From a virus, in the IMG/VR virus record IMGVR_UViG_3300045988_183062, positions 14,512 to 78,511 of that record: 64,000 bases of DNA. One strand, written 5' to 3'. Shown here one piece after another: positions 6,770 to 53,486 of the stretch (positions are counted from its first letter, which is position 1; every line of letters begins with the position of its first letter). Below the pieces are notes generated by a model. That model did no database searches, was not told the DNA's origin, and saw nothing but the letters and a program-made list of their open reading frames with translations. The position numbers were made by a program, and so were the translations under genes.

Positions 6770-6781
6770 GCATCTACCCCA

Positions 6782-6815
6782 ATCCCGGTCTTGTGATAGG
6801 CCGGGATTTTTCTTT
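6782..6815 (+). terminator. Rho-independent terminator after coupling-protein gene
   Basis: atcccgg..ccgggat hairpin followed by TTTTTCTTTT. Confidence 0.7.
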
Positions 6816-6951
6816 TCCCCGATTCAGCAATGAGTCGGGAACTACGCACATCGACAGCCTCCGCGCGGCGCGTAGTGGTTAGTGCCCGTATCCTGCTATC
6901 GGGCAGCGAATGTCGATAACATACTACATCCCTACAAAGGAGACCAATACC

Positions 6952-8112
6952 ATGAACGAGAACGAAATGCTGAACCCCACCACCGTCGAAACCGACGAGG
7001 TGACCACCCCTGTTGCCCCTGCGGAGGAGGCTATGGAAAACGCTCAGAGCGTTGCTCCTGTTGCCGAGCCTGCTGAGGAAAAAGACTCCGTCGAGGCCGT
7101 TCCTGCCCCGGCTAACGACGTAGAGGACGAGGACGATGTCCCTGAAGCTCCCCGCGCTTCCCGCCGTTTCAATGACGACGATTTGCAGATTGGTGCCTTC
7201 ATTGACGATGGCAACGATATGCTGAAAGTCGATATGCCTGAAGACCGCCGCGCCCGTGACCTCGCTGAGATGCGCCGCTGCGTGGCTGACAACAAGCGCA
7301 GCCCTCGCCGCTTCCTGCAGGGTAAGGTCTTCGGTGTCCGTCCTGTTGGCAACGGCAGCGCGGTCGTCGAAGTCACCCGTGGTACGCTGCGCGTGATGAT
7401 TCAGGCTGAGGACTTCTTCCACTTCTCTCAGATGAAGGGCATCGAGAACGATGATGAAGCTACTCGTCAGCGCCGCTTCCTGCGCAAAGCTAAGCTGATG
7501 AATGGTGCTATCATCAACTTCTGCCCCTATCTGGAAGCCGAGTCTGAGGACGGCGAAGTTGTCTTCGCAGGCTCCCGCCAGGACGCCATGCAGCTCCAGC
7601 GCAATCGTCATTTCTTCGGCCGCAACGCCGATGTCAAGGAAGGCACCCGCGCTGCTGCATCTATCCTGTCTACCGGCCCTGATTACGTCATTGCTGAGGC
7701 TCTGGGCGTTGAGACCAGCATTGGTGCTGCTGCCCTGTCTGCTTACGAGTACATCGACAACGTGGCCGACAAGTTCCATGTTGGTGAAGGCATTCCCGTG
7801 GTCATCGAAGACCTGAACGTGGATGCTGAGAACGGCACTGTCAGCCTGCGTATGAACCGCGCTATCCTGGAGCGCCGTGCCAATCCTGCTATGAACATTC
7901 ATAGCCTGGCTCGTGGTGGCGCTTATGGTGCAACTGTTACATCTGTCAATGAGCGCTTCTACCGCCTCATTGTGGATGTCGGCAACATCCAGGCCCGCGT
8001 TGCACTGACTTCCTCTGATGAGCTGCTGACTCGTGGCGACCGCGTGACGCTGCTGGTCTACGGCTATGATGATAAGCGCAACTACGTCTGGGGCGCTTGC
8101 CACAAGGTCTAA
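6952..8112 (+). CDS. Acidic N-terminus protein with 2-3 S1/OB-like repeats (tentative), function unknown
   Basis: RBS AAGGAG upstream of ATG 6952; repeated G-x-V-x-G-x-V pattern reminiscent of S1 domains (GKVFGVRPVGNGSAVVEVTRG). Confidence 0.45.
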   Translation: MNENEMLNPTTVETDEVTTPVAPAEEAMENAQSVAPVAEPAEEKDSVEAVPAPANDVEDEDDVPEAPRASRRFNDDDLQIGAFIDDGNDMLKVDMPEDRRARDLAEMRRCVADNKRSPRRFLQGKVFGVRPVGNGSAVVEVTRGTLRVMIQAEDFFHFSQMKGIENDDEATRQRRFLRKAKLMNGAIINFCPYLEAESEDGEVVFAGSRQDAMQLQRNRHFFGRNADVKEGTRAAASILSTGPDYVIAEALGVETSIGAAALSAYEYIDNVADKFHVGEGIPVVIEDLNVDAENGTVSLRMNRAILERRANPAMNIHSLARGGAYGATVTSVNERFYRLIVDVGNIQARVALTSSDELLTRGDRVTLLVYGYDDKRNYVWGACHKV

Positions 8113-28346: not shown

Positions 28347-28871
28347 ATGGGAAAATTTAAGAAGCAAACATGCTGCTTTACGGGGCATCGAGACATTCCG
28401 CCGGGCGAGCAGACAAAGATACTGACCAGGGTAAGGCACCGGCTTATCCCGCTTGTTCAGAGCGGAATCATCTACTATGGAGTGGGTGGTGCTTTAGGGT
28501 TCGATACCCTCGTAGCTGAGATGCTTATTGAGCTGAAGAAAGAAAACAGCCGCCTGCGTATCATCGAGGTGCTTCCCTTTGAAGGCTACCGCGACCGATG
28601 GACTCCAGAACAGCAGCTCCATGCCAAGAACTTAGACAAAAAGATGGACAAAATCGTCTATGTCAGTAAAGAACCGAGCAAGAGCGCTTACTTGACCCGT
28701 GACCGCCACCTGGTTGATTGCTCCGACTACTGCATCTCTTACTGCACGAAACAAACGGGAGGTACAGCCTATACTGTGAAATACGCTCTTGAGAAACAGT
28801 TGACGGTCTATAACGCATCATCGTTCGATGTGACATCATTACTCGGAGCAGCACCTCTTCATCACAAATAA
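28347..28871 (+). CDS. SLOG/DUF1273(YpsA)-like Rossmann-fold protein (tentative)
   Basis: N-terminal CCFTGHR motif and size ~170 aa; RBS AAAGGAG. Confidence 0.45.
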   Translation: MGKFKKQTCCFTGHRDIPPGEQTKILTRVRHRLIPLVQSGIIYYGVGGALGFDTLVAEMLIELKKENSRLRIIEVLPFEGYRDRWTPEQQLHAKNLDKKMDKIVYVSKEPSKSAYLTRDRHLVDCSDYCISYCTKQTGGTAYTVKYALEKQLTVYNASSFDVTSLLGAAPLHHK

Positions 28872-35644: not shown

Positions 35645-36532
35645 ATGACTTCTGAACAGGTTCGTATCGCACTCACCGCCAACGCCGTTACCCGCTCGAC
35701 CCGTACCGGCTTCGATTTTGAGGACCCCTGCGGCAAGACGCTGGACGAGTTTACCAAGGGCGCTACGCTTCAGTGCCTGCGTGTTGCCCAGCAGATGCAG
35801 CAGCCGGGCTTTGAAAAGGTATTGGCTGCCCAGATTTTCCCGTGCTATACCATCGCCAACTGGAACCAGACCAAGGTCATCTATGATTTCGGCAAGGATT
35901 TTCTGGAGCTGCTGATGGATACCGATGACCTCACCATCCATCGCGAGGTGCTGGAGCGCCTGCCGTTCAAGAACTTCTATGTGCCTCTGTACAACAGCGT
36001 AGACTACTGCGGCATGTTCGTACATATCGAGTTTGATACAAAGACGGATGACACCTTCGTTGGCATCGTCCTCGTGGGCCCGGTCCAGAACGAAAAGGAG
36101 AACTTCGCGTTCCTGTCTCTGCCCGCTTGGATTAAGGAGGGTCAGAGCCTGACGGAGGCGACTCGCAGCACGAAACAGTACATCGAAAAAGCATCTTCGA
36201 CTCGCGATAAAGATGACATCACTATTCCTGAAACGCTGGACGCTATCCCGTCTGTTTACGGCGAAGGCACGCCCTATGTCCGCCTCGCAATGCTGTGTGC
36301 CTACTACCTTGCCAGCAAAGGCGCGGAGATTCGTCTGGACAGTCCGAAAAAGGACGAGCGTCCTGTCTTTACGTTCAAGGGCCAGACCAAGAAAGTCAAT
36401 ATCAAGACCTTCGTGGTGGGCCATTATCTGATGGAGCGTTACAAGAGGGAAGCAAACGGTAAGGCTCCCACCTGGCGGCACTATTGGTGCGGCAATGGCC
36501 GCGAGCGCCGTGAGTGCAAGTTCTCCTTCTGA
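35645..36532 (+). CDS. Hypothetical protein
   Basis: RBS GGAGGATATTT before ATG. Confidence 0.5.
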   Translation: MTSEQVRIALTANAVTRSTRTGFDFEDPCGKTLDEFTKGATLQCLRVAQQMQQPGFEKVLAAQIFPCYTIANWNQTKVIYDFGKDFLELLMDTDDLTIHREVLERLPFKNFYVPLYNSVDYCGMFVHIEFDTKTDDTFVGIVLVGPVQNEKENFAFLSLPAWIKEGQSLTEATRSTKQYIEKASSTRDKDDITIPETLDAIPSVYGEGTPYVRLAMLCAYYLASKGAEIRLDSPKKDERPVFTFKGQTKKVNIKTFVVGHYLMERYKREANGKAPTWRHYWCGNGRERRECKFSF

Positions 36533-41077: not shown

Positions 41078-41278
41078 ATGATTGAAACGAAATCAGGCGT
41101 CAGCCTTCGTATCAATGGTACGGTCATCTTTGCTTCCAATAATGTATCCTACTGGTTCATCAATGGCCGCCTAATTCGGAGTGATGGCGAAATCGAAGGA
41201 GAAGCCACAACCATGAAAGACGCAGTCGCTATTGTGCTTGAAAAGTACGGCGGCAGAAAGGAGCCAATCAATGGATGA
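41078..41278 (+). CDS. Small protein, paralog of the next gene
   Basis: RBS GGAGGAGG; SGVSLRINGTVI.. similar to SGVTLRVSNGSTI.. downstream. Confidence 0.45.
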   Translation: MIETKSGVSLRINGTVIFASNNVSYWFINGRLIRSDGEIEGEATTMKDAVAIVLEKYGGRKEPING

Positions 41279-41468
41279 AATCAGGACCAATAGCGGAGTA
41301 ACTCTCCGGGTATCCAATGGAAGCACAATCTACACCTCTGACGGTAAAGCATTCTGGTGCTGCGGCTCGATGCTCGTAGGTAACGGAACCGTCATCAGCT
41401 ATAAATGTAAATCGGCAGAAGAAGCGCTGGATATGGTTGCGGCACTTTATAACGGCCGTGCCAAATAA
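41271..41468 (+). CDS. Small protein, tandem paralog
   Basis: RBS AAAGGAG; overlaps previous by 8 nt. Confidence 0.45.
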   Translation: MDEIRTNSGVTLRVSNGSTIYTSDGKAFWCCGSMLVGNGTVISYKCKSAEEALDMVAALYNGRAK

Positions 41469-42120: not shown

Positions 42121-42147
42121 ATAAAGAGATGAAAAGGAGATGTGTAT

Positions 42148-42759
42148 ATGAGTGATTTCAACCCGAAAAACGACCCGCAAGTCCAGGCATACATTGCCTT
42201 CGTGGAAGACTTCAAAGAGTTTATTCGCAGAGAGGATAGAGTCGGCAAAGACCAGTACAAGCTGGTCAATCTCTATGGTGAGAAGGGGCTGGATGACCCC
42301 GATGCCAAGATTGTGACTTTGCAGGACGAAAAGGCTCAGCTGCTTGCCGCAGCCAGCTGTGACCTTGCAAAAGCAACGCTCTGGCTGTATTACTTCCGCG
42401 ACAAGTTCACAGACATCGAGCTCGTTGACATCAGAGGGGAAGACTACACTTCCTATCTGAAGCAAATCATCCATAAACTGAACGATAATACGAGTCCGCT
42501 CTACCTGGATGCGTGGGATATGCTTATCCGCCTTGTGGCAGAAGACTGTATGCCGGATGCTTATGTCGGCGACAAGAAGAAATGGCAGCTGGTATACACC
42601 AACATGTACTGGAATGTCCACCTGGCGATGAAATCTCTCAAGACGGGTGGCTCCATCAAACGCATGGTGGACAAGCTGCCGAAGGATGCCGATAAAATCG
42701 GGAACCTGGCTTTCAAGTATTTCAACGACGCGCTGATTGCTTACGAGATGAATCCGTGA
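42148..42759 (+). CDS. Hypothetical protein, paralog A1 (pairs with 43987-44598)
   Basis: RBS AAAGGAG 7 nt upstream; ~35% identity to A2 incl. C-terminal DADKIGNLAFKYF/DADKITNLAFVLF. Confidence 0.55.
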   Translation: MSDFNPKNDPQVQAYIAFVEDFKEFIRREDRVGKDQYKLVNLYGEKGLDDPDAKIVTLQDEKAQLLAAASCDLAKATLWLYYFRDKFTDIELVDIRGEDYTSYLKQIIHKLNDNTSPLYLDAWDMLIRLVAEDCMPDAYVGDKKKWQLVYTNMYWNVHLAMKSLKTGGSIKRMVDKLPKDADKIGNLAFKYFNDALIAYEMNP

Positions 42760-42885: not shown

Positions 42886-43548
42886 ATGAACAAAAACATC
42901 CATTATACCGCAACGCGCATCACCTGCGAGTTGGAGAACGACATCTACAATTACATCGAGAGCCAGCTGGCAAAGAAGCTCGTACAGAAAGCTACCGCCG
43001 GGCGCAAGCAGTATTTCTATTATGGCAACGACTCGGACAGCACGGCCATGCAGGTTGCGATGACCGATGAGGAAGCAAAGCACCTGGCTGAGTGTTCTGT
43101 CCTGCTTGCCGAGCGGCTTATGGTGATGTACAACATGACGGCTGGCTTCAAAAACATCGAGATGCAGGCAACTACAGGCAAGCCGAAAGAAGCTACCTGG
43201 CCCAAGGTCTACAATACGATGGTTGCGAAAGGTTCGCCCTTGTATGATGAGCCGCTCCTTGGCCGCGTTTACAACCTGCCGAGCTACTATGCTTTGAAGA
43301 AGTACGACCGCCAGCTGATGTCCGACATGTATGAAGCCATGCTGATGGTGGTCTACGATACGGCCGCCGAGCTCAAAGGTCAGTGGGATACTAACGGCAA
43401 GATGACCTTGCAGAATCCTCTGTTCACACATATCGCTGTGACCATCTTCAACGGTCTCCTGGGTGCCACGACGATGCGCTACAAGGTTCTCAAAGATACG
43501 CCCGCCGGGGTTATGGAGGGAATGCACATTGAATCTGCTGCGGTTTAA
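42886..43548 (+). CDS. Hypothetical protein Q1, paralog of 49721-50320 protein; upstream partner of NADAR gene
   Basis: RBS AGAGG; region AKHLAECSVLLAERLMVMYNMTAGF ~ AKSLAYAATKMAERLIELSNKTDGFF. Confidence 0.55.
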   Translation: MNKNIHYTATRITCELENDIYNYIESQLAKKLVQKATAGRKQYFYYGNDSDSTAMQVAMTDEEAKHLAECSVLLAERLMVMYNMTAGFKNIEMQATTGKPKEATWPKVYNTMVAKGSPLYDEPLLGRVYNLPSYYALKKYDRQLMSDMYEAMLMVVYDTAAELKGQWDTNGKMTLQNPLFTHIAVTIFNGLLGATTMRYKVLKDTPAGVMEGMHIESAAV

Positions 43549-43972
43549 GAAAGACGACCCGACCTACGGGTTTCTGAGCAATTATTATCCTTGCTCCTTT
43601 GTGCTGGATGGAATCTACTACCTCAACGCGGAAGCAGCATTCCAAGCCCAGAAGGTCCCGCCGGAGGAAAGACGCCAGTTTGCCTGCCTCATGCCGAACG
43701 AGGCGAAGAAACTCGGCCGCCGGGTCCAACTTTCTCCAGATTGGGACGAAGTTCGAGACGAAGCGATGCGCCGGGTGCTGTATGCCAAGTTCAGCCAGAA
43801 CGAGGAGTTCAAACAGCGACTGCTCGCTACAGGCGACCGGCACATTATCGAAGACACGACCGGCTGGCACGATAACTATTGGGGGAAATGCCAGTGTCCC
43901 AGATGCAAGGGCGTTCACGGTCAGAACAAACTGGGCATGATGCTCGAAGAAATCAGGACCAAATTAAGATAA
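43529..43972 (+). CDS. NADAR (YbiA/DUF1768) domain protein, predicted ADP-ribose N-glycosidase
   Basis: TTG start with RBS GGAGGG; motifs GFLSNYYP..F..DGIYYLNAEAAFQAQK and GWHDNYWG; overlaps Q1 gene end by 20 nt. Confidence 0.7.
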   Translation: MNLLRFKKDDPTYGFLSNYYPCSFVLDGIYYLNAEAAFQAQKVPPEERRQFACLMPNEAKKLGRRVQLSPDWDEVRDEAMRRVLYAKFSQNEEFKQRLLATGDRHIIEDTTGWHDNYWGKCQCPRCKGVHGQNKLGMMLEEIRTKLR

Positions 43973-43986
43973 AAGGAGAACTCAAC

Positions 43987-44598
43987 ATGAGCGAACAGAA
44001 TACGATTGCCGAAGAGCAGCAGAAAGCCTATGAGGCCTTGGCGCACGACTTTATCGACTTCATCAAGAAGAAGGTACGCGCAGGGGAGAACAGCTACAAG
44101 CTGGTGAACATTTACAAGCAGTATGACATCGATGCTGACAGCTTCGATACGGTTCAGCTGGATGATGCCAAAGCCGAAAAGCTGGCACTTATCTGCATGG
44201 ACCTTGCCAACGCTATCCTGTGGCTTCACTGCCACCGCGATGAGTTCAAAGATACCGAGTTCATTGAGGTCGTGAACGGTAACTACCCGAAGTATCAGGT
44301 CAAGATTCAGCAGGCGATGAACGATGAGGGTGGTGCTTTGTACCTTTCCTGTTGGTATCCGCTCATCAAGTCACTTTCCGTGGATTGCATGCCGGAGCAC
44401 ATTACCAAGGACCGCGTGATGCAGCAGGCCATCTACGTCAACACCTACATGCTCGTCTACCAGGCGGCTAAGAGCCTCAAGGACGGCGGTGCGGTCAAGG
44501 AACTTGTCGGGCATCTCGATACGGATGCCGATAAAATCACCAACCTGGCCTTCGTACTTTTCTGTATGGAGTTGGATATGGTGAATTCTATTGCGTAA
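43987..44598 (+). CDS. Hypothetical protein, paralog A2
   Basis: RBS AAAGGAG; similarity to 42148 protein. Confidence 0.55.
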   Translation: MSEQNTIAEEQQKAYEALAHDFIDFIKKKVRAGENSYKLVNIYKQYDIDADSFDTVQLDDAKAEKLALICMDLANAILWLHCHRDEFKDTEFIEVVNGNYPKYQVKIQQAMNDEGGALYLSCWYPLIKSLSVDCMPEHITKDRVMQQAIYVNTYMLVYQAAKSLKDGGAVKELVGHLDTDADKITNLAFVLFCMELDMVNSIA

Positions 44599-44609
44599 CG
44601 GAGGCATCT

Positions 44610-45227
44610 ATGAAGTGCAATTACAAGAATCGCAATAGCGAAGGGGATAAAGGCTTTCAAGCCCTTGAAAGCTATACAAAAAGTCTGATGCCTGCAGTTC
44701 GAGCTATCGAGACGACGATGAAGCAGCAGTACATTGTAGATAGTACGACCTGTTACAATCCAGAAACCGAGCAGCGTGTAAAGGCAAACGATTTTACGCG
44801 AACCAGACTTGCTTTCATGTCGGCAAAATATGCTGACGGCATCCTTAAAGCTTGGGATGCCACAAAAGAGTCTGACAAGCTCGAATCGCCGAAAGATGAC
44901 GAGGACCTTTACAAACTGGCACTTGCAGCTTTCGCACCCGGCGGGAAGCTGGCCTTTGAAGGAGAAGACGAAAAGTTTTCAGAACTCATGTGCGTCTGCA
45001 CCTGGGCATCGAAAGACATCGTGGCTGTACTCAAAGAAGATGCAGACCTCCGAAAGACCATCTATGGAGCCATCTATAAGGCGCTGCTTCAAATTCAGGA
45101 AAGCGGCTGCCTACAAGTAGAAGGAAGAACAAAAACAGAGAGGTTCTGCCTGGTAGCTGTAGCAATCTTCCAAAAGCTGTTTACTGCTACTACGAGTGGC
45201 ATCTACCCGAAAAAAGAAACAGCATAA
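44610..45227 (+). CDS. Hypothetical protein
   Basis: RBS ACGGAGG. Confidence 0.5.
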   Translation: MKCNYKNRNSEGDKGFQALESYTKSLMPAVRAIETTMKQQYIVDSTTCYNPETEQRVKANDFTRTRLAFMSAKYADGILKAWDATKESDKLESPKDDEDLYKLALAAFAPGGKLAFEGEDEKFSELMCVCTWASKDIVAVLKEDADLRKTIYGAIYKALLQIQESGCLQVEGRTKTERFCLVAVAIFQKLFTATTSGIYPKKETA

Positions 45228-45235
45228 CCGAAACT

Positions 45236-45282
45236 GCACGCATGTGATTCGTAAACGCATGTGTGCAGTTTTTGCTCTATTT
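45236..45282 (+). terminator. Rho-independent terminator
   Basis: aactgcacgcatgtg..cgcatgtgtgcagtt hairpin + TTTTTG. Confidence 0.65.
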
Positions 45283-45302
45283 CGTGCAATGCAAGAAAAT
45301 TT

Positions 45303-46736
45303 ATGAGCAATGCAAACAAGCCAATCATAGCAATCCAAATCTATTACGAACAGCGAATCGGAGCAGAACGAGAAGTCCTGAAAACATTTTTTACCTTCAT
45401 TGGCTGCTTGGTCAGGACGACCCCAATGTCTGCAGAAGATATGCTGAAACAGCATAAGACTCTGGTGCATCCAGAGAATAAGCAGACTACGTATCTGTTT
45501 CTCACTGACCGCTATCCCGGCGATGCAGAACCGGCTGAGAATGAATTGTGGTGCGCTTTTAGTATTAAGAAACAGGAACTGATTATCAATAACGCTGCGG
45601 CTATACAGAGCCATTCTTCCGTAATGCAGTTTGGGAAGGAAGCGCTCGACAACATCATCTTCCACATCTGGCGAGAAGATTCGATGGCAGTAGCGAGTCT
45701 CCAGCACATCAATGAGGCCTTCTGGCAGTTTGACATGTTCGCGCACCTGGAAATCAAGAGTACGTTTCAGGTCCTGAAAATGAGCGAGTTGAAGACTCTT
45801 AGCCCAAAGAACGATTACAAGCTGCCGGATAACAGCTACTTCAACGAGATAGCTGATTCCTTCATTGGGCTGGAAAAGCATTGCCGAACAGGGCTTCAAA
45901 GCGTTTATTCCGTGTACACCTGTGTGAACGCCCAGAGGCATCTGAGAGAGCTTACGGCCACGTTGGAGACATTTTCATCGTTGAGAATAAGGCTACTTTC
46001 GGTTCTTGAGTCGGTAGAGAAGCTGCTTTCAGAGCTGAACAAAATCTACCGCGTAGACCCTGGCTTCGTGCCTATGTACAGCCTGGCTGCTGCACTGTGC
46101 GATGGGCAGCCTCAATTTGCCCTCGATGCCCGGCCATACCTGCGCGAAGCCATAGAGCACGCCACGAAAGAGACAACGCCTTTTACGGCCGAGATATTCC
46201 TGCAATACGGCATCTCCGAGAAGCAAATGTATTCTGACAAGGAAAGAGCCTTGCAATGCTTCCAGAAAGTGCTGCAACTGGATGATTCCTCTTACAAGGC
46301 AATGTTTCAAATTGCTTGCCTGGATGCGGCCGACAGGAAGTACCAGCAGGCAAAGGCAGGCTTCAAGGAGGTAATCGTCACCATCCAAGGCGGCGACGCC
46401 AATCCCGATTGGGGCCTTCTATCTCTGGAGGAGATGCTCTATGTGTACCGTGCTTACATCTGGCTTGCAAAGCTTGCATTGGTCTCAGATGGTGAATTTG
46501 CCATTGGAGCGCCCATTGCGATGGCGCTTAACGCAGCGGATGCGTTTAGGCAAGCAACGATGCTGCATGATTGTTGCGACTATGAAAAGTACCAGCATGT
46601 TGGGAGCTATTATGGCTCCGGCATTGTTGTGAGAGCTATGTTTGTAGTGCTGAGAGATATGGTGGGAGATGCGGAGATAAATAGGGAGTTAGGGGAAGAG
46701 ATTGAAAACAATATTAAATGCTATGGAATCAAATGA
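45303..46736 (+). CDS. Hypothetical protein with TPR-like helical repeats in C-terminal half
   Basis: Long ORF; start uncertain (45261-45303). Confidence 0.5.
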   Translation: MSNANKPIIAIQIYYEQRIGAEREVLKTFFTFIGCLVRTTPMSAEDMLKQHKTLVHPENKQTTYLFLTDRYPGDAEPAENELWCAFSIKKQELIINNAAAIQSHSSVMQFGKEALDNIIFHIWREDSMAVASLQHINEAFWQFDMFAHLEIKSTFQVLKMSELKTLSPKNDYKLPDNSYFNEIADSFIGLEKHCRTGLQSVYSVYTCVNAQRHLRELTATLETFSSLRIRLLSVLESVEKLLSELNKIYRVDPGFVPMYSLAAALCDGQPQFALDARPYLREAIEHATKETTPFTAEIFLQYGISEKQMYSDKERALQCFQKVLQLDDSSYKAMFQIACLDAADRKYQQAKAGFKEVIVTIQGGDANPDWGLLSLEEMLYVYRAYIWLAKLALVSDGEFAIGAPIAMALNAADAFRQATMLHDCCDYEKYQHVGSYYGSGIVVRAMFVVLRDMVGDAEINRELGEEIENNIKCYGIK

Positions 46737-46917
46737 TAAGCACTTCAAAAGAAAAGTAAAGCCTGTTTACGTTTGGAGCATTTCCGCAATCATTATACTA
46801 ATAGTCAGGGTAGCTCTGTATTGTCTGAAAATCAATGATGCGTGGGAAATTATAGCAAGCGTCGTTGAAACGCTTAATTTAGTCAGCATTATAATCCTCA
46901 CACAAAAAAACAGCTGA
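46702..46917 (+). CDS. Small membrane protein (tentative)
   Basis: 71 aa with 2 hydrophobic helices, overlaps upstream gene end. Confidence 0.3.
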   Translation: MKTILNAMESNDKHFKRKVKPVYVWSISAIIILIVRVALYCLKINDAWEIIASVVETLNLVSIIILTQKNS

Positions 46918-46975
46918 TATAGAAGAAAAGCAATATTGTTTACAAGCAAGCAAAAGTGCAAATGTAATCGCGAGA

Positions 46976-47320
46976 ATGAACGCCAATGACTTTGAAGAAG
47001 CGCTGCTCGACCACGCCCAAAAATTTGCAATCAAACTTGATATATATAACAAAGGAAATGATGTTGCAACTGACATAGAAATTGTTGTCAACGAACAGAA
47101 ATTTGTTACAATCGAATTTATCGCGCCAAGTGAGACAAAGCAAATTCTGCTTGGAATTGTTGATTATGAAAATAATAGTATAGAGCTTCTAACAGGAGAA
47201 AAAATAGCATTAGACAAAACGAACAAGGCGCGGGTAATATATCATAAGGTAGAATGTAGGAGTGGTCACTGGTTCTTAGCTGTCAAAATTGGGACACCGT
47301 TAACAATAACACCCAAATAA
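46976..47320 (+). CDS. Hypothetical protein
   Basis: 114 aa ORF. Confidence 0.4.
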   Translation: MNANDFEEALLDHAQKFAIKLDIYNKGNDVATDIEIVVNEQKFVTIEFIAPSETKQILLGIVDYENNSIELLTGEKIALDKTNKARVIYHKVECRSGHWFLAVKIGTPLTITPK

Positions 47321-47335
47321 GCGCCTTATATAGTC

Positions 47336-47363
47336 TTGCGCAATTCTCAAAACATGCTATAAT
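47336..47363 (+). promoter_or_regulatory. Sigma70 promoter TTGCGC-16-TGcTATAAT followed by leader hairpin
   Basis: Consensus hexamers; hairpin cagcctcc..ggaggct + TTTTTATTTTT at 47390-47442 before RBS. Confidence 0.55.
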
Positions 47364-47455
47364 ACAGACATCACAACAGGTTCACAGCCTCCTATCGTAA
47401 TCAGTATCACACTGACTGCGGTGGGAGGCTTTTTATTTTTAGGAGGTAAAATACT

Positions 47456-47938
47456 ATGGAAAAGCCGATTGAGTACAAGGAAATGGCAGCACGACACATT
47501 TACGCGTATCATAATACTGCTGGAAAAAGGAGCATTTCACGCAGTGAGAAAGTGAAAGTATCCGCCGAAGAAGCTACAAAATGGCTTGACGCGCAATACG
47601 GAAAAGAAGCACTGCTCATTTTAAAGAAAATCCTTGAAATATCCGATGGAAAAGATAGCTGTGACATCAAACTGCATGGTAATGGAGAATTACGAATGCT
47701 CTTTATGACCGGAGACGGCATCGATTACAAAAGCGGCAACATGTCAGATGAACAAGCACAAGCTACCAAACGAGCATATAAGCGTTTTGAAGATTTAAAG
47801 CGACGTGGATACCTTGATGGGAACGGAAGCGTTCTGTATATTACGCTTAAAGGCAAAGAATATTTCTATCAAAGCACTAAAAATGCAGAAAAAGTAATGA
47901 CGGGAAACAAAAGAGCCGCACAAGAACCGCAAAATTAA
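47456..47938 (+). CDS. Hypothetical basic protein
   Basis: RBS AGGAGGT 8 nt before ATG. Confidence 0.55.
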   Translation: MEKPIEYKEMAARHIYAYHNTAGKRSISRSEKVKVSAEEATKWLDAQYGKEALLILKKILEISDGKDSCDIKLHGNGELRMLFMTGDGIDYKSGNMSDEQAQATKRAYKRFEDLKRRGYLDGNGSVLYITLKGKEYFYQSTKNAEKVMTGNKRAAQEPQN

Positions 47939-47991
47939 AGAAATCACGAATTTAATTCAAATATGCCGGATTCGATTAAGTAAATTTTATA

Positions 47992-48040
47992 TTGCTGTAT
48001 CGTGCGATTTGCGTACAATTAAAGGTGCAAGAAGACCCCC
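47992..48040 (+). promoter_or_regulatory. Conserved-family promoter copy e (TTGCTG-16[..GTGCGATTTGCG]-TACAAT)
   Basis: See findings. Confidence 0.55.
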
Positions 48041-48066
48041 AATAACATATACAAAGGAGATTTCCC

Positions 48067-48387
48067 ATGAATACTTGCACTCTGAAATTTGAAGCTACCG
48101 TATTCCGCAATGATGACGACAACAACCTCGAGAGTTTTTCGGCATCCATCAGCGTTCCCGTGGAGAACGATGACGAAGTGATTGGGAACATGCTGGGCGA
48201 TGAGAAGCTGATTGTTCATGCTGTTGCAGCACTGTACAACCTTATCAGCGACCTGCACCCCAACTGGCTGGACGGCGAGGATACCAGCCTGACGCTGGAT
48301 ATTTCCATCGACGGCAGCGAGGCCCAGTCACGCGGCGGTCTCGTCGCTATGAAAGGGAACGGCTTCACTTTCGACCTCGAAGATTAA
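48067..48387 (+). CDS. Small acidic protein, duplicated cassette copy 1
   Basis: RBS AAAGGAGA; ~45% identity to 48572-48899 protein. Confidence 0.55.
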   Translation: MNTCTLKFEATVFRNDDDNNLESFSASISVPVENDDEVIGNMLGDEKLIVHAVAALYNLISDLHPNWLDGEDTSLTLDISIDGSEAQSRGGLVAMKGNGFTFDLED

Positions 48388-48400
48388 GCTGAGACAATTC

Positions 48401-48439
48401 GGAGCCTTGCCTGCAGCAGCGGGTGAGGCTCCTTTTTTG
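48401..48439 (+). terminator. Terminator ggagcc..ggctcc + TTTTTTG
   Basis: Near-identical to terminator at 48912-48951. Confidence 0.7.
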
Positions 48440-48571
48440 TTGCGTAGCTGCTAAACGGATAAGAGAGCGTAGCTGCAAAAACCGTAGGCGCGACGGTTGA
48501 CGCGATATGCGAACCGCATACAATAATAAGTACCACAGGAAACCAATAACACATACAAAGGAGAATACCAC

Positions 48572-48899
48572 TATGAACACCAACCCAAACCTGATTGAGT
48601 TCAGCGCCACCGCTTTTCGTCCCAAGGATGACAACACCCTTGACAGCCTCACCGCTTCTATCAGCTTTCCCGCCGACAAGGAAAACGACGTGATTGCTCA
48701 GACTCTGGACGATGAGGACCTGGTTGCCTATGTCATTGGTGCGCTGCATGACCTCGTTGTTTACATGCGTCCCAACTGGCTGGACAACGAAGATTCCAGC
48801 CTGACTCTCGATGTCAGTCTGGACGGCGTAAAGTGCAAGTCTTGCGGCGGCCTGGTCACCATGACGCAGAAGGGCTACACCTTCGACGTGGAAGGCTAA
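48572..48899 (+). CDS. Small acidic protein, duplicated cassette copy 2
   Basis: Same RBS context (ccaataacacatacaaaggaga). Confidence 0.55.
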
Positions 48900-48911
48900 A
48901 CCGAACGAATG

Positions 48912-48951
48912 AGGAGTCTTGCCTGCAGAAGCGGGTGAGGCTCCTTTTTTC
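48912..48951 (+). terminator. Terminator ggagtc..ggctcc + TTTTTTC
   Basis: Hairpin + T-run. Confidence 0.7.
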
Positions 48952-49256
48952 TGCTGCATGGCCGCGATATGCAGTTGACACGATATGCGACCACCATATA
49001 CTAATAGATATTGAACAGCGCTGATAGTGTTGCTTCGGTAAAGACGAATAGGGTCTTGAGCGGACCTTAAACGCTCACTGCGAGAACGGCCTGCCTGCTG
49101 CTAACAGGCGGGTCTTTTCTTTTTATACGATGGCAAAGACTCTCTTTCAAAATGTGTACAGAAGATTAAAAACAAACTACTATCGTTGTATTTCGCCACA
49201 TTTACAGGTAAAATTATAGATAGAGAAAGCAAAAAAAGCACATTGCATCCACAAAA

Positions 49257-49682
49257 ATGGTGGTGATTCATTTGAAGCAGATTATTCGATTTGCAAAGAA
49301 AGCATTGGTCGTGTGCGTGATTCTGGTCGTTGCGGTAGCCTTTGAGGGCTGCGGTGAAGTAGCAGACCAGACGCTGGAAGAGCTGAAAGGCATTCCGTCG
49401 CAGCTGTTCGCAACGAGTGAGACGGCTGAACCGGGAACGGCCGAGTCTGCAGAGCCTGATTATGATTACATCTACTACCGGCACAACAACCAGTGGGTCA
49501 TAGCCAGGCTCGTAAAGTACGAGATTGTCGATGGTGGTCTGAACATCAAGTTCGAGGTCGAAGACACTATGAGCGGAGACAAAGACTACTATACCAGCAT
49601 GGCGAACGTGATGCTGATACATAGTGAATCGAGAACATCCCGTAACGACTATGCGCTTTATCCGGGAAATAAACTGAATTGA
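49257..49682 (+). CDS. Lipoprotein (lipobox AFEGC)
   Basis: N-terminal hydrophobic signal, Cys after EG. Confidence 0.5.
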   Translation: MVVIHLKQIIRFAKKALVVCVILVVAVAFEGCGEVADQTLEELKGIPSQLFATSETAEPGTAESAEPDYDYIYYRHNNQWVIARLVKYEIVDGGLNIKFEVEDTMSGDKDYYTSMANVMLIHSESRTSRNDYALYPGNKLN

Positions 49683-49720
49683 GTTGAGGCATTTATCATT
49701 TGAACTGAAAGGAACACAAC

Positions 49721-50320
49721 ATGGCAAACAGCGGTTACATTGAAAAAGCGAAGGCTGGTGCAAGCAAGGCTATTCTGGATGCTATGCCCCGTATCCTGCG
49801 AGAAAGCGCTGCCATCGGCAAGAACAAGTATAAATACATCAAGCCTGATGGGGAAGAGCTGCCCATCGAAATAGATGATACCGACGCCAAGTCTCTGGCC
49901 TACGCTGCCACCAAGATGGCAGAACGGCTCATAGAACTCAGCAACAAAACGGACGGCTTCTTTGGTCCTTCCATCGACAATGTCACTGGCAAGAGCTACG
50001 CGAACGCCTGGCGCATCATGCGACCGTTGATGGGCAACGAAAACGCTCGCTTCTGGGATGCGGACCTGTGGGCCATTTCGGTTCGCGCCGCTGTGTGGGT
50101 CGCAAAGCCGGACTGTGCCCAAATGCGGAATGTGTCTTTTGCCCACTTGCAGAAGAAGGTTTTTGCCATTCCGTTTAACATGGCATCTATGATGCAGCAG
50201 GACAATCGATTCCTGCGCAGGATAAGCCCTTGCAGCGAGACATTCATTGAAATTGCTGCGGAACTTTACAACAAGCTGCTGGGCTTTGCCACGGGCAACT
50301 ATACCGTCATAAAGGAGTGA
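49721..50320 (+). CDS. Hypothetical protein Q2, paralog of Q1; upstream partner of macro-domain gene
   Basis: RBS GAAAGGAACACAAC; similarity to 42886 protein. Confidence 0.55.
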   Translation: MANSGYIEKAKAGASKAILDAMPRILRESAAIGKNKYKYIKPDGEELPIEIDDTDAKSLAYAATKMAERLIELSNKTDGFFGPSIDNVTGKSYANAWRIMRPLMGNENARFWDADLWAISVRAAVWVAKPDCAQMRNVSFAHLQKKVFAIPFNMASMMQQDNRFLRRISPCSETFIEIAAELYNKLLGFATGNYTVIKE

Positions 50321-50324
50321 GGAC

Positions 50325-50804
50325 ATGAGCATCAAGATTATCTCCGGCAACATCCTGACGAATCTTCCTACTAACAAGGATGTCTACATCTGTCAACAGG
50401 TGAATTGTCGAGGCGTGATGGGCGCGGGGCTTGCTCTCAAAATTCGCCGTAAGTGGCCCGTTGTGTACCAGCAATATATGGAAATTCCGGCATGGAAGGA
50501 GTTCCTTGGCAGTTACCAGAAAGTCCGGGTTGAGCCGAACATTCATGTTGTGAACCTGTTCGGGCAAAATAACTATGGACTTGGTGAACGTCAGACGAAC
50601 TATGCTGCCTTTGCAACGGCACTGTTTACGTTTATGCGAGATTGTTCGAAAATTGCCCCGGAAGCAACCATCCGTATTCCGAGCAGCATCGGCTGCGGCC
50701 TGGCGGGCGGTGATTGGGACACGGTCTTTTCTCTCATTGCCGAAGCTGCTGAGGCGTGGAACGCTAATGTTGAGATTTGGGTGTTGTCGCCCAATAAGAG
50801 ATAA
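50325..50804 (+). CDS. Macro domain protein (ADP-ribose binding/hydrolase)
   Basis: Motifs GNILTNL..DVYICQQVNCRGVMGAGLAL and SIGCGLAGGDW; RBS AAGGAG. Confidence 0.7.
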   Translation: MSIKIISGNILTNLPTNKDVYICQQVNCRGVMGAGLALKIRRKWPVVYQQYMEIPAWKEFLGSYQKVRVEPNIHVVNLFGQNNYGLGERQTNYAAFATALFTFMRDCSKIAPEATIRIPSSIGCGLAGGDWDTVFSLIAEAAEAWNANVEIWVLSPNKR

Positions 50805-51593: not shown

Positions 51594-51689
51594 TGTTTGA
51601 TGAAGCCGAAAACGGACAAGAAATCGAAAGTGCCTACCGTAAGCTGTGCATACCGCTGCGGCACTGTAAATTGGAGGGAAAATAAACCT

Positions 51690-52025
51690 ATGATGCACCA
51701 GAAACTGGTTCGGGATAATATCCCGGCTATTATTGAGAAAAACGGAGAAACTTGCGTGACTCGCAAGCTGACCGACAAAGAATACGAGACTGCTTTGGCC
51801 GAAAAGTTGCAAGAAGAAGTCAAAGAGCTGCTGGAAGCCTACACAGCAAAACAGCGGAGTGTTCTGGACTGTGCCGAGGAAATGGCGGATGTTATGGAGG
51901 TCATGTACGCTATGGGTAAGACTTGCGCTGTTTCCAAGCGAGAAATTGAACAGGTCAGAAGTCAGAAGGCGGCGGAGAAGGGGACTTTCTCTAAGAAAAT
52001 CTTCTTGGTTTCGACTGAAAAGTGA
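51690..52025 (+). CDS. MazG/HisE-like all-alpha NTP pyrophosphohydrolase
   Basis: N-terminal KLVRDNIPAIIEKNG and EE-rich helices typical of house-cleaning NTP-PPases. Confidence 0.55.
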   Translation: MMHQKLVRDNIPAIIEKNGETCVTRKLTDKEYETALAEKLQEEVKELLEAYTAKQRSVLDCAEEMADVMEVMYAMGKTCAVSKREIEQVRSQKAAEKGTFSKKIFLVSTEK

Positions 52026-52478: not shown

Positions 52479-53486
52479 GTGACAAACGCAGAATTTAAAG
52501 CAATCCTCCAGCGTGAAGAATACGATTTTTTACGTACCAACAAGCATCTGGGAGATAACATCCTGTTTTTGACCATCGGCGGCAGCCACGCCTACGGCAC
52601 GAATGTTGAGGGTTCAGATGTTGACATCCGTGGTGCAGCCGGTTCGCCTGAAATCTTGGGGGTTAACCGCTTTGAGCAGGTAATCAACAACCAGACGGAC
52701 ACCGTCATCTACGCCATCAATAAGTTCGTAAACTTACTTGTCCAATGCAATCCCAATGTCATCGAGCTTCTTGGCAATGACCTGGAGCTGTATGTGAACA
52801 TGACTCCTGAAGGGCAGATGCTGCTCGACAACAAAGAACTTTTCCTGTCCAAGCGCGTTGCATACAGCTATGGTGGCTTTGCGAACGACCAGCTCAGACG
52901 CTTGCAGATGGGGCTACTGCGGAACGGCGCTTCTCCTGAGCCGCTCAAAAACAAGTTTGAAAAGAGAAGCCTCGAACGACTGATTGCAGGTCAGGGTAAA
53001 GATGATGTCTTTGAAATCAGCATCAGTGAAGATGTCGATTCTGAAGGCAAACATCCTCTCTTGATTTCTGGAAATCTGAGTAACTATCCTGTCAACTCTC
53101 TCAAGTCCCTGCTTCGAGGTCTGACAACGACTATCGACCAGTATGAACAGCCGCAGCATCCGAAAGCGCAAAAGGATGCTGCCCATATCAATAAGCACGC
53201 CATGCACCTTGTGAGACTGTATTACACAGCATTTGACATTCTGGAGCAAGGACGCATCATCACCCGCCGGGACAAGGAGCACGAAGAACTGCTGGCTATC
53301 CGCAACGGCAAGTATATGCGTGAGGATGGGTCGTATGCACCCGAATTCTTCGAGTCTGTGGACCAGCTCGAAACGAAATTCCAGCGTGACGTGAAGAAAA
53401 CTGAACTCCCGACAAAACCCGATTTTGCGAAAATCGAGGAGTTGCTCGTAGAAATCAACAAATCCTATCTGCATCGAATTATGTAA
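52479..53486 (+). CDS. Pol-beta-superfamily nucleotidyltransferase (GS-x9-DxD), cGAS/DncV-like or minimal NTase class undetermined
   Basis: GGSHAYGTNVEGSDVDIRG motif; GTG start with RBS AAGGAAGTGA. Confidence 0.6.
   Translation: MTNAEFKAILQREEYDFLRTNKHLGDNILFLTIGGSHAYGTNVEGSDVDIRGAAGSPEILGVNRFEQVINNQTDTVIYAINKFVNLLVQCNPNVIELLGNDLELYVNMTPEGQMLLDNKELFLSKRVAYSYGGFANDQLRRLQMGLLRNGASPEPLKNKFEKRSLERLIAGQGKDDVFEISISEDVDSEGKHPLLISGNLSNYPVNSLKSLLRGLTTTIDQYEQPQHPKAQKDAAHINKHAMHLVRLYYTAFDILEQGRIITRRDKEHEELLAIRNGKYMREDGSYAPEFFESVDQLETKFQRDVKKTELPTKPDFAKIEELLVEINKSYLHRIM

What the first reader, a model, noticed from the sequence alone, without database searches (positions are those of the whole stretch)
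42886..50804. Two paralogous two-gene modules: unknown ~200-aa protein (Q1/Q2) immediately upstream of an ADP-ribose-removing enzyme (NADAR or macro domain)
The protein at 42886-43548 is a clear paralogue of the one at 49721-50320. Each sits directly upstream of, and is translationally coupled to, a different ADP-ribose hydrolase: Q1 to the NADAR protein at 43529, Q2 to the macro-domain protein at 50325. This upstream-partner/downstream-hydrolase layout is the architecture of DarT-DarG (macro antitoxin) and of DarT1-NADAR toxin-antitoxin pairs. Here, however, the upstream partners show no obvious ART motifs and the hydrolases are minimal single-domain proteins. Two independent copies with different hydrolase folds argue for a functional coupling. 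The candidates are: a novel DNA/protein ADP-ribosylating toxin family with cognate erasers, or an anti-defence pair protecting incoming ICE DNA from host DarT-like systems.
Basis: partly seen in the sequence, partly recalled or inferred. Interest (0 to 1): 0.85.

Follow-up and report, generated by a model that had tools for sequence, protein, structure and literature searches.

The report
Orphan helical partners of ADP-ribose erasers
A large conjugative DNA element from gut metagenomes carries two conserved gene pairs, each joining an unknown, apparently non-enzymatic helical protein to an enzyme that removes ADP-ribose from DNA; they look like a two-part counter-measure against host DNA ADP-ribosylating defences, not a toxin-antitoxin pair of the DarT-DarG kind.

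Summary
Q1 (42886-43548) and Q2 (49721-50320) are true paralogues. Each sits directly upstream of an ADP-ribose hydrolase: NADAR at 43529-43972 (20-nt overlap) and a macro domain at 50325-50804 (4-nt gap). Across 116 related loci, Q1-type genes precede a NADAR in 39 of 40 cases and Q2-type genes precede a macro gene in 65 of 66, with Q diverged to 37% identity.

The family is larger than reported. A1 (42142-42759) and A2 (43984-44598) are further paralogues. This A clade and a 213-aa clade never precede a hydrolase (0 of 65).

The toxin reading is not supported:
- The Q2 model (pLDDT 89.7) is a helical bundle with a small hairpin, not an ART fold, and has no significant match in the PDB or BFVD.
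- The only conserved polar residues are two aspartates.
- No DarT or ART gene is in the window.
- Twelve macro genes lack Q2, and one Q1-type gene lacks a NADAR.

The most likely reading is an orphan-antitoxin-like counter-defence enzyme plus a non-catalytic partner. The partner's role is inferred, possibly a binder of the transferase. The family is tiny (68 clusters among 1.84 billion proteins) and confined to uncultivated conjugative elements.

The parts
42142..42759 (+). A1, an A-clade paralogue of the Q family (205 aa). It is not followed by a hydrolase.
   Evidence: 42% identical to A2. The A profile matches the Q profile with hhalign probability 94%, E 1.2e-7 over 175 columns.
42886..43548 (+). 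Q1, the Q-clade protein paired with the NADAR (220 aa).
   Evidence: Paralogue of Q2. No Pfam, PHROG, NCBIfam or PADLOC hit. AF2 model pLDDT 72.5 with the same helix order as Q2; residues 199-220 are disordered.
43516..43531 (+). Q1/NADAR junction: GGAGGG Shine-Dalgarno sequence, then the TTG start of the NADAR gene inside the 3' end of Q1.
   Evidence: Read directly from the sequence. A gene caller made the same 147-aa call with the same 20-nt overlap in the syntenic locus L001.
43529..43972 (+). NADAR ADP-ribosyl N-glycohydrolase (147 aa, single domain).
   Evidence: Pfam NADAR E 9.9e-29. PDB matches to YbiA 2b3w (4.8e-15) and NADAR 8bau (1.3e-13). E35, K42, AKKLGR 59-64, E108 and HDNYWG 114-119 are present.
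43984..44598 (+). A2, an A-clade paralogue (204 aa), starting 11 nt after the NADAR stop.
44610..45227 (+). B, a protein of the same size (205 aa) next in the operon. It is not demonstrably related to the family.
   Evidence: hhalign probability 1.3% against the Q profile.
49257..49682 (+). Lipoprotein-like gene (141 aa) upstream of Q2. In the Q1b lineage it directly precedes the macro gene, with no Q2 between them.
   Evidence: 43% identical to L026:9971-10420, which abuts the macro gene there.
49721..50320 (+). Q2, the Q-clade protein paired with the macro domain (199 aa).
   Evidence: AF2 model pLDDT 89.7, pTM 0.88: seven helices plus three short strands. No fold relative.
50312..50327 (+). 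Q2/macro junction: AAGGAG, the Q2 stop codon TGA, a 4-nt gap, then the macro ATG.
   Evidence: Read directly from the sequence.
50325..50804 (+). Single-domain macro protein (159 aa) of the SCO6735/BT1257/DarG-like group.
   Evidence: The GVMGAGLA and GCGLAGG motifs are present. The position aligned to the DarG catalytic lysine is Q or N (FGQNNYG against FPTKKHW).

Best explanation
The accessory region of a large conjugative element holds two counter-defence modules.

The enzymes. Each module has a stand-alone ADP-ribose-removing enzyme. One is a NADAR, the kind shown elsewhere to take ADP-ribose off guanine in DNA. The other is a macro domain of the SCO6735/DarG-like group. These act like the 'orphan antitoxin' enzymes that phages use against DarT-type defence toxins: they strip ADP-ribose from the element's own DNA. 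That DNA enters a recipient as single-stranded DNA, which is the DarT substrate.

The partners. Directly upstream of each enzyme, and co-transcribed with it, is a member of the Q clade. This is a roughly 200-aa helical protein with no enzyme-like signature. It serves as a dedicated non-catalytic partner.

Most likely role of Q. Q1 and Q2 are paralogous, while their hydrolases are unrelated folds. The enzymes those hydrolases oppose (DarT1 and DarT2) are homologous to each other. I therefore think the partner most likely recognises the transferase, or the ADP-ribosylated single-stranded DNA, rather than the hydrolase. That would reproduce in two genes the double action of DarG, which combines an eraser domain with a DarT-blocking domain.

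Shown here: the paralogy, the enzyme identities and intact catalytic residues of the NADAR, the conserved clade-specific pairing, the non-ART helical fold, purifying selection on Q, and cassette-like co-inheritance of Q1b and its NADAR.

Inferred: the anti-DarT role, any physical interaction, and what Q binds.

The confidence of 0.4 is for the overall reading (counter-defence erasers plus a non-catalytic partner). The specific guess that Q binds the transferase is much less certain, about 0.15.
For: Pairing:
- Q1-type genes precede a NADAR in 39 of 40 loci, and Q2-type genes precede a macro gene in 65 of 66 loci that have room downstream.
- A NADAR-seeded scan found a Q gene upstream of all 34 NADARs at 57% identity or more.
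- The pairs persist while Q diverges to 37-39% identity and the hydrolases to 54-60%.
- Genes are inserted between the lipoprotein gene and Q2 in some lineages, but never between Q2 and the macro gene.

Selection and co-inheritance:
- Q1b has dN/dS 0.24, against 0.054 for its NADAR and 0.07 for the A-type gene.
- Q1b and NADAR distances are correlated (r 0.67, Mantel p 5e-4), while either gene against its flanks gives r 0.06-0.19. The pair is 7-14% divergent inside flanks that are about 2% divergent.

Q is not an enzyme by the available signs:
- The fold is helical with no relative.
- The only conserved polar residues are D53 and D113.

Context:
- No DarT or ART family appears among 76 window ORFs.
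- The window is a T4SS element: VirD4-type and VirB4-like ATPases and no phage structural hits.

Precedents in the literature:
- The phage orphan NADAR AdfN counters DarTG1 (PMC11257639).
- A chimallivirus DarG2-like antitoxin has been described (PMC13309987, abstract only).
- The DarG C-terminal domain and AdfB block DarT by binding it (PMC11481870).
Against: - No activity, interaction or DarT target was tested.
- All loci come from one syntenic family of elements, so the conserved adjacency is not many independent events.
- The co-inheritance test does not discriminate for Q2c and the macro gene, because flanks correlate as well or better.
- The macro domain lacks the DarG catalytic lysine at the aligned position and is closer to SCO6735, which I recall (from memory, not checked here) as a protein de-ADP-ribosylase. 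Thymine-ADP-ribose reversal is therefore uncertain.
- Q net charge is not consistently acidic (pI 4.9 to 9.0), which argues against a simple single-stranded-DNA mimic of the kind described for the DarG C-terminal domain.
- NADARs at 29-49% identity work alone in other viral contigs, with no Q. The macro gene also occurs without Q2 in 12 loci. Q is therefore not needed for the enzymes as such.
- The position relative to oriT is unknown, because no relaxase was found in the window.
Confidence: 0.4

Rival explanations
1. Toxin-antitoxin or defence module with partner swapping. Q is a non-ART toxin or effector, its damage is reversed by the downstream N-glycohydrolase, and the element carries the pairs for addiction or for defence against phages and rival elements.
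For: - The gene order (partner upstream, hydrolase downstream, tightly coupled) matches darT-darG (PMC11543638).
- The same partner family pairs with either a NADAR or a macro domain, just as DarT does.
- A validated defence system, DS-32, pairs a NADAR with a non-ART gene, a PRTase (bioRxiv 10.1101/2025.01.08.631726).
- The NADAR also matches the PADLOC candidate defence component PDC-M42C at 2.4e-15.
Against: - Q has no catalytic-looking conserved residues and no enzyme-like fold.
- The A and D213 clades of the same family never have a hydrolase neighbour (0 of 65).
- Locus L056 keeps an intact Q1-type gene after a deletion that removed the NADAR and most of the macro gene.
- Q matches no PADLOC model.
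- The hydrolases lack the toxin-binding C-terminal domain of DarG.
Confidence: 0.17
2. Historical synteny only. The Q/A family is a general accessory or structural protein family of these elements, present in several copies. Two copies happen to sit next to hydrolase genes and have stayed there because the whole region is syntenic.
For: - All loci belong to one family of elements with the same backbone order: small paralogue, lipoprotein, Q2, macro, MazG-like, 51859-type gene, RlaP nucleotidyltransferase, helicase.
- Tight spacing is the rule for all genes in these operons. For example, the NADAR-A2 and A2-B gaps are both 11 nt.
- Most family members (A and D213 clades) have other neighbours, for example lipoproteins in L009.
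- The co-inheritance test for Q2c and the macro gene is no better than for its flanks.
Against: - Two separate loci each put a Q-clade paralogue directly upstream of an ADP-ribose eraser, and the two erasers have unrelated folds.
- The pairing is restricted to one clade of the family: 104 of 106 against 0 of 65.
- The Q1b-NADAR pair moves as a unit between otherwise near-identical backbones.
- Q2 and the macro gene are lost together in L110.
Confidence: 0.2
3. Q is a helper of the hydrolase itself. It could be a chaperone or a localisation or export adaptor, for example delivering the enzyme to the transferred strand, the replisome or the type IV secretion channel. In this reading it does not act on the host transferase.
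For: - Strict adjacency and probable translational coupling would give a fixed stoichiometry.
- The element has a type IV coupling protein.
- Q1b and NADAR distances co-vary.
- The Q fold looks non-catalytic.
Against: - Paralogous Q proteins would have to bind two structurally unrelated enzymes.
- The same macro gene works without Q2 in the Q1b lineage (12 loci).
- Related NADARs in other viral contigs have no such helper.
- No interaction was tested here.
Confidence: 0.2

Closest known systems
Orphan antitoxin-like anti-DarT enzymes of phages: AdfN (T4 gp30.3 and other phage NADARs, PMC11257639) and the chimallivirus DarG2-like macro protein (PMC13309987)
   Same: Stand-alone single-domain NADAR or macro hydrolases carried by a mobile element that has no DarT of its own. 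The window NADAR also scores on the Pfam Phage_30_3 model (2.6e-8, below its cutoff) and on phrog_1017 (2e-36). The macro protein scores on phrog_335 (1.8e-35).
   Different: - The carrier here is a conjugative T4SS element, not a phage.
- Both eraser types are present together.
- Each is preceded by a dedicated paralogous partner gene, which the phage enzymes lack. The 25 more distant viral NADARs have no Q gene.
- Activity was not tested.
DarT-DarG toxin-antitoxin systems: DarTG2 with a macro DarG and DarTG1 with a NADAR (PMC11543638)
   Same: A partner gene of about 200 aa lies directly upstream of a DNA ADP-ribose eraser. One partner family is used with either eraser fold.
   Different: - The upstream protein is not DarT. 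It has no DUF4433 or ART hit, a helical fold and no catalytic motif.
- The erasers lack the DarG C-terminal DarT-binding domain.
- The macro domain lacks the DarG catalytic lysine at the aligned position.
Non-enzymatic DarT blockers: the DarG C-terminal domain, AdfB (ICP1 Gp145, 77 aa) and AdfA (PMC11481870)
   Same: Proposed analogy only: a small non-catalytic protein, encoded by a mobile element, that could neutralise DarT by binding it.
   Different: - No sequence or fold similarity was detected.
- Q is about 200 aa.
- Q is not consistently acidic.
- Binding was not tested.
DS-32 defence system (PRTase plus NADAR; bioRxiv 10.1101/2025.01.08.631726)
   Same: A two-gene unit with a NADAR downstream of a non-ART partner. 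It is an example of partner swapping around a NADAR.
   Different: The partner here is not a PRTase and does not look like an enzyme. The NADAR scores far below the NCBIfam DS32_2 cutoff (63.8 bits against 240).

Membership tests
DarTG toxin-antitoxin system | The upstream gene encodes DarT, an ADP-ribosyltransferase (DUF4433, ART fold with a catalytic Glu). | tested here: not met
   - Q1 and Q2 have no Pfam, NCBIfam or PADLOC hit at E 0.1 or better.
- The Q2 model is helical with only three short strands.
- The only conserved polar residues are D53 and D113.
DarTG toxin-antitoxin system | The antitoxin DarG has two domains: a hydrolase plus a C-terminal DarT-binding domain. | tested here: not met
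   The macro protein is 159 aa and matches only positions 1-149 of the 338-position DarG model. The NADAR is 147 aa and is covered end to end by the NADAR domain.
DarG-type macrodomain | A catalytic lysine (K80 in Thermus aquaticus DarG). | tested here: not met
   The phmmer alignment to 5m3i places FGQNNYG opposite FPTKKHW, so neither lysine is matched. The alignment is weak (E 3.7e-5), so the register could be off by a residue or two.
Macro domain superfamily (SCO6735/BT1257/TARG1-like group) | Sequence homology to solved macrodomains, with the two glycine-rich ADP-ribose-binding loops. | tested here: met
   Matches to 5e3b (1.6e-13) and 2fg1 (2.9e-10). GVMGAGLA at residues 30-37 and GCGLAGG at residues 123-129. 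The Pfam Macro model itself is below its cutoff (14.8 bits against 22).
NADAR superfamily (YbiA-like subgroup) | A Pfam NADAR match above the gathering score, with residues equivalent to E43, K50 and E125 of the P. nicotianae NADAR. | tested here: met
   101.1 bits against a cutoff of 35.1. E35, K42 and E108 align to those residues in 8bau (PMC11543638 section 12).
Orphan antitoxin-like anti-DarT factor (AdfN type) | A stand-alone eraser on a mobile element with no cognate DarT. | tested here: met
   No DarT or ART family among 76 window ORFs at E 1e-5 or better in Pfam and PADLOC. Only 64 kb of the element was seen.
Orphan antitoxin-like anti-DarT factor (AdfN type) | Removes ADP-ribose from DarT-modified DNA and rescues the element from DarTG. 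| not testable with these tools
   This needs biochemistry and conjugation assays.
DS-32 (PRTase plus NADAR) | The partner is a phosphoribosyltransferase, and the NADAR reaches the NCBIfam DS32_2 cutoff. | tested here: not met
   Q has no PRTase hit. The NADAR scores 63.8 bits against a cutoff of 240.
Generic toxin-antitoxin pair | The toxin gene is never kept without its antitoxin. | tested here: inconclusive
   One contig (L056) has an intact Q1-type gene after a deletion that removed the NADAR gene and most of the macro gene. It is a single metagenomic contig and could be an assembly artefact or a dead element.

The most novel reading that the evidence does not exclude
Q1 and Q2 are founding members of a new family of anti-defence proteins. 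In this reading they bind and block the two homologous DNA ADP-ribosyltransferases, DarT1 and DarT2, and each is teamed with the eraser that removes the matching DNA adduct. Together they would form a 'split DarG' that conjugative elements use to protect their incoming single strand. The A and 213-aa clades of the family would be binders of other defence effectors.
Probability: 0.15. Interest if true: 0.8.

Novelty: new variant of a known kind. Interest (0 to 1): 0.6.

Why it matters
DarT-type toxins modify single-stranded DNA, and conjugation delivers exactly that. Anti-DarT functions have so far been described for phages (PMC11257639, PMC11481870, PMC13309987). My searches found no such description for conjugative elements; the leading-region anti-defence survey (PMC11541004) held no 'ADP-ribos' term in the full-text search.

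This element family carries both eraser types. Each is locked to a paralogue of an orphan-fold protein that looks non-catalytic. If the partner proves to be a transferase blocker or a targeting factor, that would have two consequences:
- It would add a new protein family to the anti-defence repertoire.
- It would show that the two-pronged DarG mechanism can be assembled from separate genes.

The hypervariable, co-inherited Q1b-NADAR cassette in otherwise near-identical backbones is the sort of pattern an arms race leaves. That makes the pair a good experimental target. If the pairing is only synteny, the result is still a clean annotation of two ordinary orphan ADP-ribose hydrolases.

Tried and rejected
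- **Q as an ART or DarT:** rejected on fold, family searches and conservation.
- **B (44610-45227) as a fifth paralogue:** not supported (hhalign probability 1.3%).
- **Apparent domain fusions of Q/A with SPFH, TraG-like and surface proteins (P0038, P0044, P0062, P0064, P0034):** the joins are abrupt and the flanking text is identical to separate window genes. I treat them as deletions or assembly chimeras, not architectures. P0063 (Q1-like plus HNH) may be real.
- **Relatives in annotated collections:** none in PLSDB or INPHARED by DNA or protein search, and none in 185,579 GTDB species genomes. The host therefore remains unknown.
- **DNA-mimic idea from charge:** the pI of Q members ranges from 4.9 to 9.0, so there is no consistent signal.
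- **AcrVA2-like annotation seen in locus L001:** not reproduced for the 295-aa window ORF at 35645-36532, the same size as the L001 gene (homology between the two not tested).
- **Co-inheritance test for Q2c and the macro gene:** uninformative, because two deep sub-lineages make all genes correlate.
- **Co-folding of Q with a hydrolase or with DarT:** could not be run, because the structure tool takes single chains from the window only.

Full report
**What is in the window**

The 64-kb window is part of a conjugative element.
- It encodes a VirD4-type coupling protein (4598-6769), a VirB4-like ATPase (9736-12444) and an M23 peptidase.
- It also encodes a sortase, a UvrD-like helicase and a Y-family polymerase.
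- Ten large unknown proteins gave no phage structural hits.

The region from 41 to 53 kb is a run of small plus-strand genes of unknown function.
- Q1 (42886-43548, 220 aa) and Q2 (49721-50320, 199 aa) align over 186 residues at 24% identity, E 3e-11.
- The gene at 43529-43972 is a NADAR (Pfam E 1e-28).
- The gene at 50325-50804 is a macro domain. Its nearest solved relatives are SCO6735 (5e3b, 1.6e-13) and BT1257. It also matches the N-terminal half of the DarG models.
- The NADAR starts at TTG 43529, 7 nt after GGAGGG and 20 nt inside Q1. The macro ATG is 7 nt after AAGGAG and 4 nt after the Q2 stop.

**The family is larger than reported**

An all-against-all search of the window ORFs shows two more paralogues: A1 (42142-42759) and A2 (43984-44598).
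- A1 and A2 are 42% identical to each other.
- They are related to Q at the profile level (hhalign probability 94%, E 1.2e-7 over 175 columns).
- The next gene, B (44610-45227), has the same size but is not demonstrably related.

The local order is A1, Q1, NADAR, A2, B and a 491-aa protein, with no strong terminator between them. The second unit runs lipoprotein, Q2, macro. The pairs are therefore embedded in operons.

**How rare the family is**

- No member hits Pfam, PHROGs, NCBIfam or PADLOC.
- A word-indexed search of 5.8 billion proteins found 3 relatives for Q1 and 15 for Q2.
- A profile search found 30 relatives.
- An exhaustive HMM search of 1.84 billion cluster representatives found only 68 hits, many of them fragments.
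- There is nothing in PLSDB, INPHARED or 185,579 GTDB species genomes.
- The carriers are metagenomic contigs of up to 389 kb; those whose record names state a source are from the human gut. IMG/VR files many of them as viral.

**Fold**

With a 21-sequence alignment, AlphaFold2 gives a confident Q2 model (pLDDT 89.7, pTM 0.88).
- The order of elements is a long helix, a three-stranded hairpin region (31-50), a long helix, a conserved 15-residue loop, and five more helices.
- Q1 gives the same order of elements at pLDDT 72.5, with a disordered C-terminal tail.
- Foldseek against the PDB and BFVD gives nothing at E 0.001 or better.
- A profile search of PDB sequences is empty.

This is not an ADP-ribosyltransferase fold. 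Across 16 Q-clade sequences filtered at 85% identity, the conserved positions are D53, A56, L70, L73, G79, F80, G82, G90, A109, D113, A149, A155, M158, F175, A179, L186 and L187. That is a structural signature with two aspartates, not a catalytic constellation.

**Is the pairing real?**

I collected 116 related loci by exact-protein look-ups and pattern scans. Every family member was classified by its best reference.

| Clade | Followed directly by a hydrolase | Gap to the hydrolase gene |
|---|---|---|
| Q1-type | NADAR in 39 of 40 | -20, +15/16, +29, or +167 nt (one locus) |
| Q2-type | macro in 65 of 66 with room downstream | +4, -4 or +2 nt |
| A-type | 0 of 53 | not applicable |
| 213-aa clade | 0 of 12 | not applicable |

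The two exceptions are rearrangements:
- L056 has a deletion of about 4.3 kb from the NADAR gene into the macro gene, and it leaves Q1 intact.
- L110 has a truncated or fused Q2 and no macro gene.

The pairs persist while Q diverges much faster than its enzyme:
- Q1 is 37% identical between the window and L026, against 59% for the NADAR.
- Q2 is 37-39% identical, against 54-60% for the macro protein.

The Q-seeded sampling is biased, so I also seeded a scan with the NADAR.
- All 34 NADARs at 57% identity or more have a Q gene upstream.
- The 25 next-closest NADARs (29-49% identity, other viral contigs) have none, and their neighbours vary.

In the Q1b lineage the macro gene is present without Q2 in 12 loci. 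There it directly follows the homologue of the window lipoprotein gene. Q is therefore a lineage-specific addition to enzymes that can stand alone.

**Selection and co-inheritance**

In 32 Q1b loci, dN/dS is 0.24 for Q1b, 0.054 for the NADAR and 0.07 for the nearby A-type gene. Q is a real, constrained gene but evolves about four times more freely than its partner.

Pairwise protein distances tell the same story:
- Q1b and NADAR distances are correlated (r 0.67, Mantel p 5e-4).
- Neither correlates with the A-type gene upstream or the 628-aa gene immediately downstream (r 0.06-0.19).
- The pair is 7-14% divergent inside flanks that differ by about 2%.

The pair behaves as a hypervariable cassette that is exchanged as a unit. 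The same test on Q2c and the macro gene is uninformative, because two deep sub-lineages make every gene correlate. All Q2 loci share one syntenic backbone, so the many loci are not many independent events.

**The enzymes**

- The NADAR keeps the residues equivalent to E43, K50 and E125 and the AKKLGR phosphate loop of the Phytophthora enzyme. That enzyme's guanine-ADP-ribose hydrolase activity was characterised by Schuller and colleagues (E35, K42, E108, 59-64; PMC11543638).
- The macro protein has both glycine-rich loops. At the position aligned to the DarG catalytic lysine it has Q or N. It is therefore not a DarG-type macrodomain in the strict sense, and its substrate is open.
- No DarT or other ART family is found among 76 window ORFs.

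**Interpretation**

The DarT-DarG reading fails on its defining feature, because the upstream protein is not a transferase. Phage work gives a closer model:
- Orphan NADARs (AdfN) and a DarG2-like macro protein counter DarTG by erasing DNA ADP-ribose (PMC11257639; PMC13309987, abstract only).
- DarG itself also blocks DarT with a C-terminal domain, and phage AdfB does the same as a small binder (PMC11481870).

I therefore read the hydrolases as orphan-antitoxin-like counter-defence enzymes of a conjugative element, and Q as a dedicated non-catalytic partner.

What Q binds is inference. My preferred guess rests on one argument. The two Q proteins are homologous and the two erasers are not, while the two transferases the erasers oppose (DarT1 and DarT2) are homologous to each other. 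Paralogous recognition of the writers, or of ADP-ribosylated single-stranded DNA, is therefore more economical than paralogous recognition of unrelated erasers.

Three points count against this guess:
- Q is not consistently acidic.
- Q resembles no known DarT binder.
- Nothing has been tested.

The rivals remain open:
- A partner-swapped toxin-antitoxin or defence pair, as in DS-32.
- A helper of the hydrolase itself.
- Plain synteny.

**Verdict**

The toxin interpretation is not supported, and the anti-defence interpretation is plausible but untested. The hydrolases are ordinary members of known families. The conserved, clade-specific coupling to an orphan-fold partner is new as far as my searches show. 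I rate it a new variant of a known kind.

Noticed in passing
window 28347-28871: A YpsA-type SLOG protein. It hits Pfam PF06908 in the window-wide scan and PDB 2nx2 at E 1e-3. With the NADAR, the macro protein, a PRA-PH/MazG-like pyrophosphohydrolase (51597-52025) and an RlaP-type nucleotidyltransferase (52479-53486), the element carries a set of genes typical of NAD/ADP-ribose and nucleotide-signal conflicts.
   Followed up: partly
window 48067-48387 and 48507-48899; hairpins at 48401-48432 and 48911-48946: Two paralogous small proteins (50% identical). Each is followed by a nearly identical strong terminator-like hairpin, so the duplicated unit is gene plus terminator. A homologue sits upstream of the lipoprotein gene in L026 (9364-9729).
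   Followed up: partly
window 41078-41278 and 41232-41468: Two more small overlapping-end paralogues (31% identical over 62 residues), just upstream of the A1 operon.
   Followed up: no
L006, L007, L009 and L011 (for example L006:1632-4729): Related elements that carry A-type paralogues also encode SecY, SecE and an FKBP/trigger-factor-like protein. This is an unusual cargo for a mobile element.
   Followed up: no
IMG/VR contigs behind L024-L175 (for example IMGVR_UViG_3300045988_181067, 389 kb): Elements of this family are filed as viral genomes in IMG/VR. The window, however, has type IV secretion genes and no phage structural hits. No relative of Q is present in any of 185,579 GTDB species genomes, so the host is unknown.
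   Followed up: partly
L009:7611-10621: A-type paralogues alternate with two paralogous lipoproteins (265 and 263 aa, 34% identical) in the order lipoprotein, A, lipoprotein, A. This is a second kind of recurring pair for this family. The window Q2 also follows a lipoprotein gene.
   Followed up: partly
proteins P0063, P0038, P0044, P0062, P0064 and P0034: P0063 is a Q1-like domain with a C-terminal HNH nuclease motif. The others are abrupt joins of A2 or Q1 sequence to SPFH, TraG-like or surface-protein sequence identical to other window genes. They are probably large deletions or assembly chimeras.
   Followed up: partly
window 43889-43906 (NADAR residues 121-126): A CxCxxC insert (CQCPRC) after the HDNYWG motif. 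Its cysteines are invariant in all four Q-linked NADARs aligned (A12). It has no counterpart in the YbiA alignment and gave a weak zinc-finger hit in NCBIfam.
   Followed up: no
L026-L059, genes at about 6001-7030: Synonymous divergence differs strongly between neighbouring genes of the same loci: NADAR 0.61, Q1b 0.30 and the A-type gene 0.12. This indicates mosaic recombination at the scale of single genes.
   Followed up: partly
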